This document shows, piece after piece, positions 15,396 through 18,326 of a stretch of DNA of 64,000 nt. Numbering within the stretch: position 1 is the stretch's first letter; each line of letters begins with the position of its first letter. The notes beneath the pieces are model-generated. The model was not told the DNA's origin. It did no database searches and saw nothing but the letters and a program-made list of their open reading frames with translations. A program made the translations under genes and the position numbers. The stretch covers positions 36,474-100,473 of the IMG/VR virus record IMGVR_UViG_2851976983_000001. The stretch is one strand, 5' to 3'. The stretch is from a virus. Lineage: Duplodnaviria > Heunggongvirae > Uroviricota > Caudoviricetes.

Positions 15396-15834
15396 ATATT
15401 TCGCGGCGGTACTTGTTGATGGACAACCAGGCAACCAGGAACTTTCCCGCAACTTGCACTTTACGTTAGTGCCAGACGAGGCTTGTGGCGCGCTCACATA
15501 GAGCAAAGATCTGGAATCCTTCTCGGTGGTTGACGGCCGCCAGATTCTTCGATCTTATTGGATGTATGGAATCATCCATGTTGTGAAACCAGGGGCTACA
15601 TAGGCAACAATGATTTCACCAGAGGGTTAAAGAATCCTGCTTTCACAACGTTGAGGCCGCTGAACCGATTTATGTTCGACCCAACATATTGATCAGTCAC
15701 TACAGCTCTGTGGAATCACCTGTATGATTAAAAGAAAAACAGTGACCTCAACGTTGTGCGCTGGCTAACCAAGCCAGCCGGGTTACGTCGCCGCTTTTAA
15801 CCCAAGATTAAACGACATAAGTAATGGAAATGAC

Positions 15835-15949
15835 GTAACAGGATGGACGGTCAGCTGGCTGAAACCGGGATGATGGAATGGAATGAGGAAACCAACCGTC
15901 CATCCTGTTACTTCATCGAATAGGGCATGGGTGGTGCAACATGCCCTAT
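15835..15949. repeat. two consecutive strong hairpins in an ORF-free region
   Basis: 16-bp perfect stem GTAACAGGATGGACGG/CCGTCCATCCTGTTAC (15835..15911) then 10-bp stem ATAGGGCATG/CATGCCCTAT (15920..15949). Confidence 0.5.
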
Positions 15950-16143
15950 CCTGCGTTCTGAAATCACACTCGCTCAGTGTGTCCCATTTCGGTGACGAGG
16001 CTGGAAACTGACCTCGCTGGTGTTTGGCTTCTTAGGCTACTGCCAGGTACGTATCTTCGTTTGCAGTTATATTTAACGTTCAAACAGTCGCATCTCAACG
16101 AAAACAAGTGAATCTTATACGTATTAAATAAGTAAGTAAATGC

Positions 16144-16449
16144 TTATTTTTCTGTGGCTCGTTCAGTTGCTATCTTTTTGATCAAACTCACCTTCTGTTC
16201 CGGCGTTCTCGTGATGATGGCCGTAAAACGCTTCGCATGAATAGTGATAGTTTCGTTCTCCTTCAGTTCACCGTAGTGAGTCTCCAGCAGAGAACCCAGG
16301 CGCCACAGGCCGTCGTCTATGCGTTTATGGCTGGCAAATCTGATCAGCAGTAGCTTTACGATTAACTGACCAATGTAAAAGGCATATCCGAAGCCGGCCG
16401 CCACAAGGTAGGTTACCAGCCACCAGTAGAAAGAGGTCAAATTGCTCAT
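16144..16449 (-). CDS. hypothetical membrane protein
   Basis: N-terminal hydrophobic helix FYWWLVTYLVAAGFGYAFYIGQLIV; start overlaps the upstream stop. Confidence 0.5.
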   Translation of the reverse strand: MSNLTSFYWWLVTYLVAAGFGYAFYIGQLIVKLLLIRFASHKRIDDGLWRLGSLLETHYGELKENETITIHAKRFTAIITRTPEQKVSLIKKIATERATEK

Positions 16450-16598
16450 TTCCGCACTCCCGTCTCGTGAACAACCCGATACAGACGCTTACCGATGCGA
16501 AGCGTTTTGGTTTCCAGTTCCTGCCTGACCATATCGCGACAGATACTGAAGCCGAGGGCCACGCCCCCAGCAAAAGATAATAGGATGTATGGAATCAT
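16446..16598 (-). CDS. small membrane protein (50 aa) missing from the ORF track
   Basis: Hand translation MIPYILLSFAGGVALGFSICRDMVRQELETKTLRIGKRLYRVVHETGVRK; start and stop overlap both neighbours. Confidence 0.4.
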   Translation of the reverse strand: MIPYILLSFAGGVALGFSICRDMVRQELETKTLRIGKRLYRVVHETGVRK

Positions 16599-16810
16599 CA
16601 GAACGCCCCCGCCTCAGTCAATTGCTGCAACAGTGAGTGTCCTTTTTCAGTGAGTTGATAGTTCTCCACACATCCCTTTGGCGAAACGTTAGCGACAAGA
16701 TTCATACGTTCCAGTTTGGCGCGGGTCTTTGGCTTCCAGTTGGAATAGAACTCTTTCCATTGGCTGATTTCACGCAGAGTTTCCTTCTCCCGTTTACTTA
16801 ACATGATCAT
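16598..16810 (-). CDS. hypothetical protein
   Basis: 70-aa ORF translationally coupled to both neighbours. Confidence 0.5.
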   Translation of the reverse strand: MIMLSKREKETLREISQWKEFYSNWKPKTRAKLERMNLVANVSPKGCVENYQLTEKGHSLLQQLTEAGAF

Positions 16811-16970
16811 CCTTAATCTCCTTCAGTGTGTACGTGATATCTACAATGCGGTTAATGCGGCCGCGCCTCTGCATGACACCGGCTTTTACGTAATCGTTGA
16901 TGCAGCTGGACGTAACCAGACTGCCGATAACAATGCCGACGACCAAAAATACAATCATCCAGCCGAGCAT
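16794..16970 (-). CDS. small membrane protein (58 aa) missing from the ORF track
   Basis: Hand translation MLGWMIVFLVVGIVIGSLVTSSCINDYVKAGVMQRRGRINRIVDITYTLKEIKDDHVK; ATG overlaps the ligase stop. Confidence 0.4.
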   Translation of the reverse strand: MLGWMIVFLVVGIVIGSLVTSSCINDYVKAGVMQRRGRINRIVDITYTLKEIKDDHVK

Positions 16971-18292
16971 CAGTCTTTATCTCCAATACGGTCTTCGGTA
17001 TCTCGCAGACATTTCGGCCACTTCAGACGTGGGTGGCGTAAGCTACCGTCCGGCGTTTTCTCATGGCAGTGAACCTCGACGATGCGTCCACGATACTTCT
17101 CCTGATTGTTCCAGATCTCATCCAGGTACTTATGCTTGATACCGCTGGCACGAACGATGACGCCGTTCTCCAGACGAATCACTATCTTGCCCAGCGTATG
17201 CGCAAAGCCAGAGTCCGGGTCGCCTGGCTCGAAGTCGATGATTTCACCGTCTTCGGAATCCTCGTCTTTCAACTTCCACCAGCTGCGGGTACGCTTGAAC
17301 TCGTAAACAGAATCCGGATCTTTGCCCATCTCCCCCTCTTCGTTCTCGTCCAGGCGCTTCATGAAGCGTTCGATAAAGTCTCCATGGCTATGGATGATGT
17401 AGAACGGATGCAGGTGGATATCTTGCGCGTAATCTTCCCCGCAAGTGTTGCGGAACAACGCCACCAGCATAGCCAGGCGCTCTTTCAGCTTCATGCCGGT
17501 CTTCAGGTACTCTTTGCTTTTTGCCTGAGCACGCCACTCCGGTAAGAAGAAATCGAAGATGTGGTAAACGGCACCAATGGCTTTCACGTTCTTCTTGCGA
17601 AGCGCCGATACGGACTGGTTGAACGTACCTGCAGTACCCTCACCATCGAAGAAGATGTGCTTGAACCCGGAGAGTCTGCCTCGCTCCAGCATGGCCGGTT
17701 TAAGGTGATCGAGTGACGTAATCGGATTTCCGGTACGCGTCAGGAAGTTCACCTCTTCCTCGTCAACGATGACTTCGCAGATAACCCGGAGACCATCGAG
17801 TTTGAGGCTGCCGATCATTGGCCACTTGGCCTTTGGATTTGGTTTAAATGGGTATTTGTCGCCTTTCTCCTTGTACGGAGACGCCAGCTGTACCTCAAAC
17901 TTCGGAATTGGGTTTTCGAACACCTTGTTGCACAGGCTGATGCCGACGCCGGCTTTCGGATCTTTCAGCAGGAAGCGACGAAACACGTCCTGCCCGTCAG
18001 CGCACATTGAGGCAACGAGTGATTCGACAGCAGTAATGGCCGCGTTCCCGGTCAGTTCGCGCGCCGCCAGCTTCTCCAGCAGCTCGACTACCTTCTGGTC
18101 GATGGGTACGGAAGTATCGAGTGGCTCGACCACTTTGTACTTCTTCACACCGAATCGAATGAATGGGTTGAGCATTAGCGAGACCATGCTCTGCTCAAAT
18201 TCATCAAGGTTGGCCAGCGCCTCTTTTTTGGCGTTGGTTCCCATCGTTTTTATGGCATCCAGCTTGTGCTTTAGGGCGATCAGTTTTTCCAT
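16970..18292 (-). CDS. ATP-dependent DNA ligase
   Basis: Adenylation motif I SLKLDGLR (KxDGxR); 440 aa. Confidence 0.85.
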   Translation of the reverse strand: MEKLIALKHKLDAIKTMGTNAKKEALANLDEFEQSMVSLMLNPFIRFGVKKYKVVEPLDTSVPIDQKVVELLEKLAARELTGNAAITAVESLVASMCADGQDVFRRFLLKDPKAGVGISLCNKVFENPIPKFEVQLASPYKEKGDKYPFKPNPKAKWPMIGSLKLDGLRVICEVIVDEEEVNFLTRTGNPITSLDHLKPAMLERGRLSGFKHIFFDGEGTAGTFNQSVSALRKKNVKAIGAVYHIFDFFLPEWRAQAKSKEYLKTGMKLKERLAMLVALFRNTCGEDYAQDIHLHPFYIIHSHGDFIERFMKRLDENEEGEMGKDPDSVYEFKRTRSWWKLKDEDSEDGEIIDFEPGDPDSGFAHTLGKIVIRLENGVIVRASGIKHKYLDEIWNNQEKYRGRIVEVHCHEKTPDGSLRHPRLKWPKCLRDTEDRIGDKD

Positions 18293-18326
18293 TAGTGTTT
18301 AACCTCCATCGGTCGCTCGGGAGTTT

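What the first reader, a model, noticed from the sequence alone, without database searches (positions are those of the whole stretch)
16144..16970. Chain of four translationally coupled small genes, two absent from the ORF track
Between the ligase and the tRNA region, four minus-strand ORFs of 58, 70, 50 and 101 aa are linked by overlapping stop/start codons (ATGA or TGATG). Three of the four have a single predicted TM helix. The 50-aa and 58-aa genes are below the 60-aa ORF cut-off and were found by hand translation.
Basis: seen in the sequence. Interest (0 to 1): 0.4.

Follow-up and report, generated by a model that had tools for sequence, protein, structure and literature searches.

The report
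Four small conserved phage-plasmid genes
The four small overlapping genes behind the DNA ligase gene are real and conserved, but they are already annotated as hypothetical proteins in SSU5-type phage-plasmids (three tiny membrane proteins and one mini winged-helix protein), so the finding is ordinary; the "non-coding" stretch just after them, however, holds an unannotated tmRNA-like gene shared by many unrelated phages.

Summary
The window is an SSU5-like phage-plasmid: 100% identical to E. coli plasmid p500465_152 and 97.5% to Salmonella phage SSU5. The four minus-strand ORFs exist exactly as described (58, 70, 50 and 101 aa). One correction: the 58/70 junction is a 17-nt overlap, not ATGA/TGATG.

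They are real genes. The order, the ATG starts, the overlap geometry and a Shine-Dalgarno motif before each start are kept in relatives that have diverged to 50-80% protein identity. dN/dS is 0.07-0.16.

They are not new. SSU5 annotates them as SSU5_045-048, and they fall in PHROGs 4381, 4054, 6302 and 4507, all of unknown function.

- **The 58, 50 and 101 aa products:** predicted single-pass membrane proteins with basic tails. The 58 and 50 aa proteins look like paralogues.
- **The 70 aa product:** a minimal winged-helix protein.
- **Setting:** they sit in the replication module, are as silent as the ligase in a lysogen, and are individually dispensable.
- **Function:** unknown. The best guess is accessory lytic-cycle proteins acting at the inner membrane.

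Noticed in passing: directly downstream (about 16105-15920) lies an unannotated tmRNA-like element with a tag frame encoding ANEDTYLAVA*. It is found beside tRNA clusters in hundreds of unrelated phages.

The parts
16970..18292 (-). ATP-dependent DNA ligase (440 aa). It is the upstream gene of the chain. Its TGA stop overlaps the ATG of the 58-aa gene (TGATG).
   Evidence: ORF. Pfam PF01068 at E 4e-11 and phrog_114 at E 4e-124. Annotated as DNA ligase SSU5_044. The junction is conserved in all loci that keep the 58-aa gene.
16794..16970 (-). g58: a 58-aa predicted bitopic membrane protein. The N-terminal TM segment covers about residues 2-22 and the tail is basic, with the motif GVMxxRGR(I/V)YRI(V/I). 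It is the orthologue of SSU5_045 and belongs to phrog_4381.
   Evidence: ORF and sequence. KD 2.61. phrog_4381 at E 9e-39. dN/dS 0.15. Full-length tblastn hit in 475 plasmid records. The motif is kept in distant L024 and L021. Some RefSeq records call a 54-aa version from Met5.
16598..16810 (-). g70: a 70-aa soluble minimal winged-helix protein. Its start overlaps the end of g58 by 17 nt. It is the orthologue of SSU5_046 and belongs to phrog_4054. The family motif is WKPKTRxKLExxGLV.
   Evidence: phrog_4054 at E 6e-47. AlphaFold2 pLDDT 82, with H6-17, H27-35, b39-41, b50-53 and H55-67. Foldseek against PDB hits MarR/PadR wHTH domains with TMq 0.72-0.77. dN/dS 0.07. Distant 60-77 aa homologues come from the exhaustive HMM search. 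The N-terminus MI(V/M)LSK is conserved through the overlap.
16446..16598 (-). g50: a 50-aa predicted bitopic membrane protein. It has an N-terminal TM segment and a basic tail, KTKTLRIGKRVYRVVHET. It is the orthologue of SSU5_047, belongs to phrog_6302, and is a probable paralogue of g58.
   Evidence: phrog_6302 at E 1.5e-34. KD 1.85. dN/dS 0.16. hhalign against g58 gives probability 72%, E 3.5e-5, collinear over 4-47. With the tails alone the score is 16.0, reached by 1 of 200 column shuffles. Full-length tblastn hit in 666 plasmid records.
16144..16449 (-). g101: a 101-aa predicted bitopic membrane protein. It has a long N-terminal hydrophobic helix, a cytoplasmic helix, a beta-hairpin and a C-terminal helix. 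It is the orthologue of SSU5_048 and belongs to phrog_4507. Databases mislabel it 'C-type natriuretic protein'.
   Evidence: phrog_4507 at E 1e-58. No Pfam hit at E<=1. AlphaFold2 at low confidence (pLDDT 64): H2-61, b67-71, b76-80, H86-99. dN/dS 0.11. Homologues occur only on SSU5-like contigs of about 100-114 kb. Full-length tblastn hit in 639 plasmid records.
16794..16810 (-). The 17-nt overlap of the g58 stop region with the g70 start. An AAGGAG Shine-Dalgarno motif lies 7 nt upstream of the g70 ATG, inside g58.
   Evidence: Sequence. The same 17-nt overlap occurs in every locus that holds both genes, including distant L024. Shine-Dalgarno conservation.

Best explanation
**What it is.** These are four genuine protein-coding genes. 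They form the 3' tail of the DNA-ligase transcription unit in the replication module of an SSU5-like phage-plasmid.

**Expression.** They are expressed together with the ligase during lytic development and are silent in the plasmid (lysogenic) state. Each start codon overlaps or abuts the preceding stop and also has its own Shine-Dalgarno motif. Ribosomes finishing one gene can therefore re-initiate on the next, which ties the yields of the small proteins to one another and to the ligase. This step is inferred.

**Products.**
- g58 and g50, which are probable paralogues, and g101 insert into the inner membrane through an uncharged N-terminal helix. Their basic C-terminal tails face the cytoplasm. 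This N-out/C-in topology is inferred from the positive-inside rule.
- g70 is a free-standing 70-aa winged-helix protein whose most conserved segment is the predicted recognition helix. It is most likely a nucleic-acid binder.

**Most likely role.** They are accessory lytic-cycle proteins that act at the cytoplasmic face of the inner membrane, either in host takeover or in organising phage DNA metabolism. They are useful but individually dispensable, because natural relatives lack g58, g50, g70 or g101 in various combinations.

**Probabilities.**
- Real, co-expressed genes: about 0.95.
- Translational coupling contributes: about 0.6.
- Membrane location of the three proteins: about 0.8.
- The functional guess: about 0.3.
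For: - **Identity of the element.** 97.5% to SSU5 and 100% to plasmid CP025897.1.
- **Conserved architecture and junctions.** Seen in L001-L011, L014 and L024.
- **Purifying selection.** dN/dS and codon-position bias.
- **Ribosome-binding sites.** Conserved Shine-Dalgarno motifs.
- **Gene families.** PHROG membership.
- **Membrane prediction.** Hydropathy and charge distribution: no charged residue before the TM segment, and 8-13 K+R after it.
- **g70 fold.** AlphaFold2 model and Foldseek hits.
- **Genomic setting.** The genes lie between helicase/primase/ligase and the tRNA, cobT-like and DNA polymerase genes, all on one strand.
- **Expression in a lysogen.** In the LF82/Cyrano transcriptome the ligase scores 5.9 and the three annotated small genes 6.4, 5.0 and 7.6 normalised units. 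This is at or below the local background, and they are not among the listed 'morons' (PMC9928086).
- **Dispensability.** L012 and L016 lack g58, with the ligase stop fused ATGA to g70. L013 lacks g58 and g70 and most of the ligase. L014 and L015 carry a different C-terminus on g50 and have lost g101. The record counts differ: 475, 632, 666 and 639.
Against: - No experiment bears on translation, topology or function.
- Each gene has its own Shine-Dalgarno motif, so coupling may be unnecessary.
- No terminator or promoter was identified that delimits the unit.
- The g101 model has low confidence.
- No homologue of any of the four has a known function.
- The lysogen transcriptome shows silence in lysogeny but not induction in the lytic cycle.
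Confidence: 0.8

Rival explanations
1. Superinfection exclusion or immunity proteins: small membrane proteins that block DNA entry of competing phages, as T4 Imm/Sp or the Sie proteins of temperate phages do.
For: The proteins are small and single-pass, the locus is variable with gene gain and loss, and Klebsiella relatives carry defence genes nearby (AbiH, AbiGi).
Against: - The genes are silent in the lysogen, at the same level as the ligase. They could therefore protect only during lytic growth.
- The soluble parts are predicted to be cytoplasmic, not periplasmic.
- SSU5 already has an annotated Cor exclusion protein elsewhere, SSU5_025.
- There are no PADLOC hits.
Confidence: 0.1
2. A membrane tether for phage DNA replication or repair. 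The winged-helix protein binds DNA and the bitopic proteins anchor it, or the replisome and ligase, to the inner membrane. This would be functionally like phi29 p16.7/p1.
For: - The genes sit in the replication module and are co-expressed with the ligase.
- The architecture is an N-terminal TM segment, a helix and a small C-terminal domain.
- The cytoplasmic tails are basic.
- g70 and a g101-like TM protein stay adjacent in distant relatives L020 and L021.
Against: - There is no sequence match to any solved structure.
- More distant g70 homologues occur without TM neighbours, in lambdoid-type early regions.
- The genes are individually dispensable.
Confidence: 0.08
3. Lysis proteins: a holin, antiholin or spanin-like set.
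For: The proteins are small, with one TM segment and charged C-termini.
Against: - SSU5-like elements have a complete lysis cassette about 12 kb away, beside the tail genes: holin SSU5_026, endolysin SSU5_027 and Rz/Rz1 SSU5_028-030.
- The chain lies in the replication module, next to no muralytic enzyme.
Confidence: 0.03
4. A toxin-antitoxin-like module: one or more small membrane toxins controlled by the winged-helix protein.
For: Small hydrophobic peptides lie next to a small DNA-binding protein. SSU5-like elements carry several TA systems.
Against: - The genes have no promoter of their own and are embedded in and coupled to the ligase unit.
- They are silent in the plasmid state, when a TA addiction module would need to be expressed.
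- Members are lost singly without the partner.
Confidence: 0.04
5. Chance ORFs in non-coding DNA, or a non-coding element read as ORFs.
For: None beyond their small size.
Against: - dN/dS is 0.07-0.16 with third-position bias.
- The starts and stops are conserved.
- Only 7 of 5000 shuffles give a four-ORF chain.
- Independent annotation exists in many records.
Confidence: 0.01

Closest known systems
Salmonella phage SSU5 genes SSU5_045, 046, 047 and 048, and their orthologues in Y. pestis pMT1, S. Typhi pHCM2-type plasmids, Klebsiella phage pJN2-26 and E. coli phage-plasmid Cyrano
   Same: Same genes, same order and same junctions. Protein identity to SSU5 is 95-99%.
   Different: Nothing of substance. 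The window copy carries a few substitutions at otherwise invariant residues: g58 Y40N, g50 K29E and g101 D8Y.
PHROG families 4381, 4054, 6302 and 4507 (all 'unknown function')
   Same: Full-length matches at E 9e-39 to 1e-58.
   Different: None. The families carry no functional information.
Winged-helix DNA-binding domains of MarR/PadR-type regulators (for example MepR 4ld5, FabT-DNA 6jbx, LmrR)
   Same: The g70 model superposes on their wHTH core with TMq 0.72-0.77 and probability 1.0.
   Different: - g70 is only 70 aa and lacks the N- and C-terminal dimerisation helices.
- The helix before the recognition helix is replaced by a loop.
- Sequence identity is 15-20%.
- The Pfam and NCBIfam matches are below threshold.
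phi29 p16.7: an early bitopic membrane protein that organises membrane-associated phage DNA replication (own knowledge)
   Same: Small early or replication-module proteins with an N-terminal TM segment, a helical linker and a small C-terminal domain.
   Different: No detectable sequence similarity. The function of the present proteins is untested.
Strings of small overlapping ORFs that follow replication genes in many phages, for example T7 genes 1.4-1.8 after ligase 1.3 and T4 30.1-30.9 after ligase gene 30 (own knowledge)
   Same: The layout is the same: tiny, tightly packed genes, often overlapping, dispensable and mosaic, behind a DNA ligase gene.
   Different: The sequences are unrelated.

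Membership tests
SSU5-like phage-plasmid gene set (SSU5_045-048) | Orthology by sequence and by position between the ligase and the tRNA region | tested here: met
   97.5% DNA identity to SSU5 over 15900-18300, with the same four annotated CDSs. tblastn gives 95-99% identity.
PHROGs 4381 / 4054 / 6302 / 4507 | Significant full-length HMM match | tested here: met
   E values of 9e-39, 5.7e-47, 1.5e-34 and 1.1e-58, covering nearly the whole profile.
Translationally coupled operon | Stop/start overlap or abutment of successive cistrons, conserved in relatives | tested here: met
   Overlaps are 1, 17, 1 (4 in many relatives) and 4 nt. They are conserved in all loci that hold the gene pairs.
Translationally coupled operon | Downstream translation depends on translation of the upstream cistron | not testable with these tools
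   This needs reporter fusions with upstream nonsense mutations. Each start also has its own Shine-Dalgarno motif.
Winged-helix-turn-helix DNA-binding proteins (fold level) | Helical core with a recognition helix followed by a beta-hairpin wing | tested here: met
   AlphaFold2 pLDDT 82. The top 50 PDB Foldseek hits are almost all wHTH regulators of the MarR/PadR type, with TMq up to 0.77. BFVD hits are small phage wHTH proteins, including TubR.
MarR / PadR family (membership) | Family HMM match above threshold, and dimerisation helices flanking the wHTH | tested here: not met
   There is no Pfam MarR or PadR hit, only HTH_45 at E 0.076 and 13.5 bits against a cut-off of 25.5. The protein is 70 aa with no flanking helices.
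Natriuretic peptide family (the database label 'C-type natriuretic protein' for g101) | Match to the natriuretic peptide domain | tested here: not met
   g101 has no Pfam family at E<=1 and no NCBIfam family. The name appears only as a propagated NCBI label.
Holins / lysis cassette | TM protein encoded next to the endolysin and spanin genes | tested here: not met
   The lysis cassette is SSU5_026-030, about 12 kb away. The chain is flanked by the ligase and a tRNA region.
Known anti-phage defence proteins | Match to a PADLOC model | tested here: not met
   No hit at E<=1 for any of the four.
Bitopic N-out/C-in inner-membrane proteins | One hydrophobic segment of about 20 aa or more and the positive-inside charge pattern | tested here: met
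   KD maxima are 2.61, 1.85 and 1.63. There are 0 charged residues N-terminal of the segment and 8-13 K+R C-terminal. This is prediction only; the topology has not been measured.

The most novel reading that the evidence does not exclude
The winged-helix protein g70 and the three bitopic proteins form one membrane-anchored nucleic-acid-binding assembly. It would tether replicating or nicked phage-plasmid DNA, and the co-translated ligase, to the inner membrane. This would be a phi29 p16.7-like solution built from unrelated mini-proteins. The fixed stoichiometry would be set by the conserved stop/start overlaps.
Probability: 0.08. Interest if true: 0.5.

Novelty: already known. Interest (0 to 1): 0.18.

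Why it matters
For the finding itself, little.

- **Gene calling.** It shows that sub-60-aa ORFs in this window are real genes that a length cut-off hides, and that public annotation is inconsistent. Cyrano omits the 58-aa gene, many RefSeq records omit the 50-aa gene, and PGAP often starts the 58-aa gene at Met5.
- **A wrong name.** The 101-aa protein carries a baseless name, 'C-type natriuretic protein'.
- **Modest new points:**
  - the 58- and 50-aa proteins are probably paralogues;
  - the 70-aa protein belongs to a wider family of 60-77 aa phage winged-helix proteins;
  - genes are gained and lost precisely at the stop/start junctions, which keeps the downstream coupling intact.
- **The neighbour is of greater interest.** It is an unannotated tmRNA-like gene that standard tools miss and that many unrelated enterobacterial phages carry next to their tRNA genes.

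Tried and rejected
- **Family scans.** Pfam, NCBIfam and PADLOC gave nothing significant for any of the four.
- **Solved structures.** The PDB sequence search with the g101 and g70 profiles gave only chance-level hits.
- **Big protein database.** The searches with the g101, g70 and g58 profiles found only SSU5-like relatives. Only the exhaustive HMM search with g70 reached distant homologues.
- **g101 structure.** The AlphaFold2 model was too uncertain (pLDDT 64) for a fold search.
- **A shared tail motif.** I considered a C-terminal motif, [GK]R[IVF][YT][RA][IV][IV]xxT, common to all three membrane proteins. Profile comparison of the tails supports only g58 against g50 (1 of 200 shuffles). 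It does not support g101 against either (42 and 136 of 200), so the three-way relationship is rejected.
- **Promoters and terminators.** The consensus scan gave fewer sites than expected by chance and no terminator after g101.
- **Lysis function.** Rejected because of the separate lysis cassette.
- **The name.** A literature search for 'C-type natriuretic protein' found nothing.
- **Neighbouring element.** Rfam at E<=1 and ARAGORN at default settings find nothing. The Y. pestis sRNA catalogues list only sR082 and sR083 on pMT1, and neither maps to the element.
Full report
**1. What the window is**

The region 15900-18300 is 97.5% identical to Salmonella phage SSU5. The region 16100-17000 is 100% identical to E. 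coli plasmid p500465_152 (CP025897.1, 152.5 kb). It matches 759 plasmid records from Klebsiella, Escherichia, Enterobacter, Salmonella, Yersinia (pMT1), Citrobacter and Cronobacter. The element is therefore an SSU5-type phage-plasmid.

**2. The observation**

The four minus-strand ORFs are at exactly the stated coordinates and lengths.

- They follow a 440-aa ATP-dependent DNA ligase, whose stop overlaps the first small gene (TGATG).
- The 70/50 junction is TGATG and the 50/101 junction is ATGA.
- The 58/70 junction is a 17-nt overlap rather than ATGA/TGATG. This is the only error in the description.
- Hydropathy maxima are 2.61, 1.85 and 1.63 for the 58-, 50- and 101-aa proteins and 0.01 for the 70-aa protein. 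There are no charged residues ahead of the hydrophobic segment, and the tails are lysine- and arginine-rich. This agrees with 'three of four have one TM helix'. By the positive-inside rule (established knowledge) it implies an N-out/C-in topology.
- A four-ORF chain arose in 7 of 5000 dinucleotide shuffles.

**3. Are they genes?**

I fetched 17 related loci and located the orthologues by tblastn.

- *Architecture.* In eleven loci the order ligase-58-70-50-101 is intact, with ATG starts throughout. The ligase/58 overlap (1 nt), the 58/70 overlap (17 nt) and the 50/101 overlap (4 nt) are invariant. The 70/50 junction is either 1 or 4 nt.
- *Divergence.* Protein identities fall to 50-80%, while the ligase stays at 85-99%.
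- *Selection.* Median pairwise Nei-Gojobori dN/dS is 0.15 (58 aa), 0.07 (70 aa), 0.16 (50 aa) and 0.11 (101 aa), against 0.04 for the ligase. Variable columns are concentrated at third codon positions.
- *Ribosome-binding sites.* Each start has a conserved GGAG-type motif 7-10 nt upstream.
- *The overlap.* Within it, the N-terminus of the 70-aa protein (MI[VM]LSK) is conserved while the C-terminus of the 58-aa protein varies. This supports the upstream ATG at 16810.
- *A more distant relative.* L024, with a ligase 70% identical, keeps ligase, then ATGA, then a 66-aa g58-like gene, then the 17-nt overlap, then a g70-like gene.

The genes are real.

**4. Are they new?**

No.

- SSU5 annotates them as SSU5_045-048.
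- pJN2-26 and pMT1 annotate all four.
- Cyrano annotates three.
- Each matches a PHROG of unknown function at E 1e-34 to 1e-58.
- Annotation is patchy. The 50-aa gene is missing from several RefSeq records, and the 58-aa gene is sometimes started at Met5.
- The 101-aa protein is widely named 'C-type natriuretic protein'. No domain match supports that name.

**5. What the proteins look like**

*g70*
- With a 24-sequence alignment it folds confidently (pLDDT 82) into helix, loop, helix, beta-hairpin, helix.
- Foldseek places it on the winged-helix cores of MarR/PadR regulators, with TMq 0.72-0.77, and on many small uncharacterised phage proteins.
- It lacks the dimerisation helices of those families and does not reach any family threshold. 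It has a winged-helix fold but is not a MarR or PadR member.
- An exhaustive profile search found 30 relatives. They include 60-77 aa proteins at about 40% identity that share WKPKTRxKLExxGLV, which is the predicted recognition helix.
- Their contexts are of two kinds. The first is other ligase-linked chains: L020 has ligase, then ATGA, then g70-like, then ATGA, then a 92-aa TM protein; L021 has g58-like, g70-like and a 78-aa TM protein with a g101-like tail. The second is strings of small early genes in lambdoid-type contigs.

*g101*
- It models at low confidence as one long helix (TM plus cytoplasmic), a beta-hairpin and a terminal helix.

*g58 and g50*
- They align collinearly, with hhalign probability 72% and E 3.5e-5.
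- The similarity survives removal of the TM segments: 1 of 200 column shuffles reaches the score.
- They share G(R/K)R(I/V)YR(I/V)V, so they are probably tandem paralogues.
- A link of g101 to either is not supported.

The g101, g70 and g58 families are confined to contigs of about 100-114 kb of the SSU5 type, apart from the distant g70 relatives.

**6. Context and expression**

- In SSU5 the chain lies in a long same-strand block. The order is helicase, primase, two hypotheticals, ligase, the four genes, tRNA, cobT-like genes, DNA polymerase.
- A full lysis cassette and a Cor exclusion gene lie about 12 kb away.
- In the published lysogen transcriptomes of E. coli LF82, normalised expression is 5.9 for the Cyrano ligase and 6.4, 5.0 and 7.6 for the three annotated small genes. 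The neighbouring tRNA-overlapping CYRAN_40 scores 151. The small genes are not among the lysogeny-expressed 'morons' (PMC9928086).
- They therefore behave like the ligase and are repressed in the plasmid state.

**7. Mosaicism**

- Full-length tblastn hits occur in 475 (g58), 632 (g70), 666 (g50) and 639 (g101) plasmid records.
- L012 and L016 lack g58, and the ligase stop is fused to the g70 start (ATGA), re-using the ligase-internal GGAG.
- L013 has a deletion from ligase codon about 80 to g50. It leaves an 82-aa ligase stub still overlapping the g50 start by ATGA.
- L014 and L015 keep 26 N-terminal residues of g50 fused to a different tail and have lost g101.
- Genes are thus gained and lost exactly at the junctions, and none is indispensable.

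**8. Explanation**

- *Shown:* the genes are real, selected, overlapping and ligase-linked, and they are silent in lysogeny.
- *Inferred:* co-transcription with the ligase, re-initiation at the overlaps, membrane insertion with cytoplasmic tails, and nucleic-acid binding by g70.
- *Best guess, about 0.3:* accessory lytic-cycle proteins working at the cytoplasmic face of the inner membrane.
- *Rivals:* superinfection exclusion 0.1, replication tether 0.08, toxin-antitoxin 0.04, lysis 0.03, artefact 0.01. The reasons are given in the rival entries.

**9. Verdict on the finding**

It is correctly observed and correctly interpreted, but it is already known as annotated hypothetical genes. Interest is low.

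**10. Noticed next door: a tmRNA-like element (followed up partly)**

*Conservation*
- The 'non-coding' DNA directly after the g101 stop is far more conserved than the genes. Column identity is 0.93-0.98 over 16100-15951 in loci whose coding DNA is about 70-76% identical.
- It occurs in 751 plasmid records, 735 of them at 90% identity or more, and none of the listed records annotates it.
- It starts with an invariant TTTACT (16140-16135), a variable 17-nt spacer and TA(A/T)GAT (16117-16112). This is a sigma-70-like promoter pointing the same way as the genes.

*Spread*
- Its core also occurs at about 76-86% identity in 504 phage records from unrelated groups. These include T1-like Klebsiella siphoviruses, Felixounavirus, Kuttervirus/Ackermannviridae, lambdoid HK633 and a Vibrio phage.
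- It is usually in or beside tRNA clusters on the same strand. In IMG/VR loci, 74 of 124 have a same-strand tRNA within 1 kb downstream.

*The tag frame*
- The core holds a start-less reading frame: GCA AAC GAA GAT ACG TAC CTG GCA GTA GCC TAA (16064-16032), encoding ANEDTYLAVA*. An in-frame stop lies three codons upstream.
- All 123 instances encode AN[DE][EDN]x[YF]LAVA*. Synonymous codon changes occur (GCA/GCT, AAC/AAT, GCA/GCC, GCC/GCT) and the stop alternates between TAA and TGA.
- This closely resembles the E. coli SsrA tag ANDENYALAA and its GCA resume codon (own knowledge).

*Structure*
- The stop codon sits in the loop of a helix, as in tmRNA helix 5 (own knowledge).
- Two H-type pseudoknots follow. 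Their stems covary: GCGAGG/CCUCGU against GUGAGG/CCUCAU against GCAAGG/CCUUGU, and GGCCC/GGGC against GGCGGGAG/CUCCCGCC against GCCCAC/GUGGGC.

*What the tools say*
- ARAGORN at default settings and Rfam gathering thresholds miss it.
- ARAGORN at an 80% threshold calls a permuted tmRNA with exactly this tag in the window (16153-15732) and in four unrelated phages.
- Rfam gives sub-threshold hits to tmRNA_permuted (20 bits, E 0.05) and to the tag region of tmRNA (E 0.015) in phage KP591P1.
- I found no tRNA-like domain in the SSU5-type copies. In KP591P1 a tRNA-like structure with a canonical T-arm lies about 90 nt downstream.

*Literature*
- A 2014 census found ssrA in phages only in mycobacteriophages and Bacillus phage G (PMC4131195).
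- My literature searches found no description of this element.

It deserves its own investigation.

Noticed in passing
window about 16105-15918, minus strand (tag frame 16064-16032). Also L033 1501-1610, L034 1501-1610, L035 1501-1566, L036 1501-1564 and IMG/VR loci from L037 onwards: An unannotated tmRNA-like element lies directly downstream of the 101-aa gene.

- **Tag frame.** It has a start-less frame, GCA AAC GAA GAT ACG TAC CTG GCA GTA GCC TAA, encoding ANEDTYLAVA* (E. coli SsrA is ANDENYALAA).
- **Structure.** The stop codon sits in a helix loop and is followed by two covarying pseudoknots.
- **Conservation.** It is 93-98% conserved among SSU5-like elements whose genes are about 70-76% identical.
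- **Spread.** It occurs in 751 plasmid records and 504 phage records of unrelated groups (T1-like, Felixounavirus, Kuttervirus, lambdoid HK633), usually beside tRNA clusters.
- **Tag census.** All 123 instances encode AN[DE][EDN]x[YF]LAVA*.
- **Detection.** ARAGORN at default settings and Rfam thresholds miss it. ARAGORN at 80% threshold calls a permuted tmRNA with this tag.
- **Open point.** No tRNA-like domain was found in the SSU5-type copies.

   Followed up: partly
window 16140-16112, minus strand: An invariant TTTACT, a 17-nt variable spacer and TA(A/T)GAT lie immediately after the g101 stop codon. This is a sigma-70-like promoter that would start transcription of the tmRNA-like element at about 16105. 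No terminator separates it from the ligase/small-gene unit.
   Followed up: partly
window 15911-15835, minus strand: A perfect 16-bp inverted repeat, GTAACAGGATGGACGG ... CCGTCCATCCTGTTAC, with a 45-nt loop lies between the tmRNA-like element and tRNA-Asn. Rfam picked it up only as a weak 'mir-6302' hairpin. Further conserved blocks lie at 15741-15860, and a T-run lies at 15739-15731.
   Followed up: no
window 16144-16449, and database records of its orthologues: The 101-aa protein is named 'C-type natriuretic protein' in RefSeq and NCBI records across many genera. No Pfam or NCBIfam match supports the name, so it looks like a propagated annotation error.
   Followed up: yes
L012 2507-2510, L016 2257-2260, L013 about 2500-2750 (locus + strand coordinates): Genes are lost precisely at the stop/start junctions. 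In two relatives the 58-aa gene is absent and the ligase stop is fused ATGA to the 70-aa gene. In Klebsiella plasmid pKP4823_2 the ligase is cut to an 82-aa stub that still overlaps the start of the 50-aa gene.
   Followed up: partly
window 16794-16970, 16446-16598 and 16144-16449: The window's copies carry non-conservative substitutions at residues that are invariant or nearly so in the relatives: g58 Y40N inside the RIYRIV motif, g50 K29E and g101 D8Y. A second plasmid, NZ_CP025870.1, shares the identical sequence.
   Followed up: no
L005 124-1029 (Y. pestis pMT1), L007 and L009 1-343, L017 173-1045: The DNA beyond the tRNA and tmRNA-like region is a cargo hot-spot.

- In Y. pestis pMT1, caf1R of the F1 capsule operon lies about 500 nt from the chain and the tRNA-Asn is gone.
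- Klebsiella relatives carry AbiH or AbiGi abortive-infection genes there.
- Buttiauxella carries an ars operon.

   Followed up: no
whole window / CP025897.1: The source plasmid is 152.5 kb and is typed IncFIB plus MPF_F (mobilizable). Typical SSU5-like elements are about 100-112 kb and non-mobilizable. It may be a cointegrate of a phage-plasmid with conjugative-plasmid DNA. This rests on metadata only.
   Followed up: no
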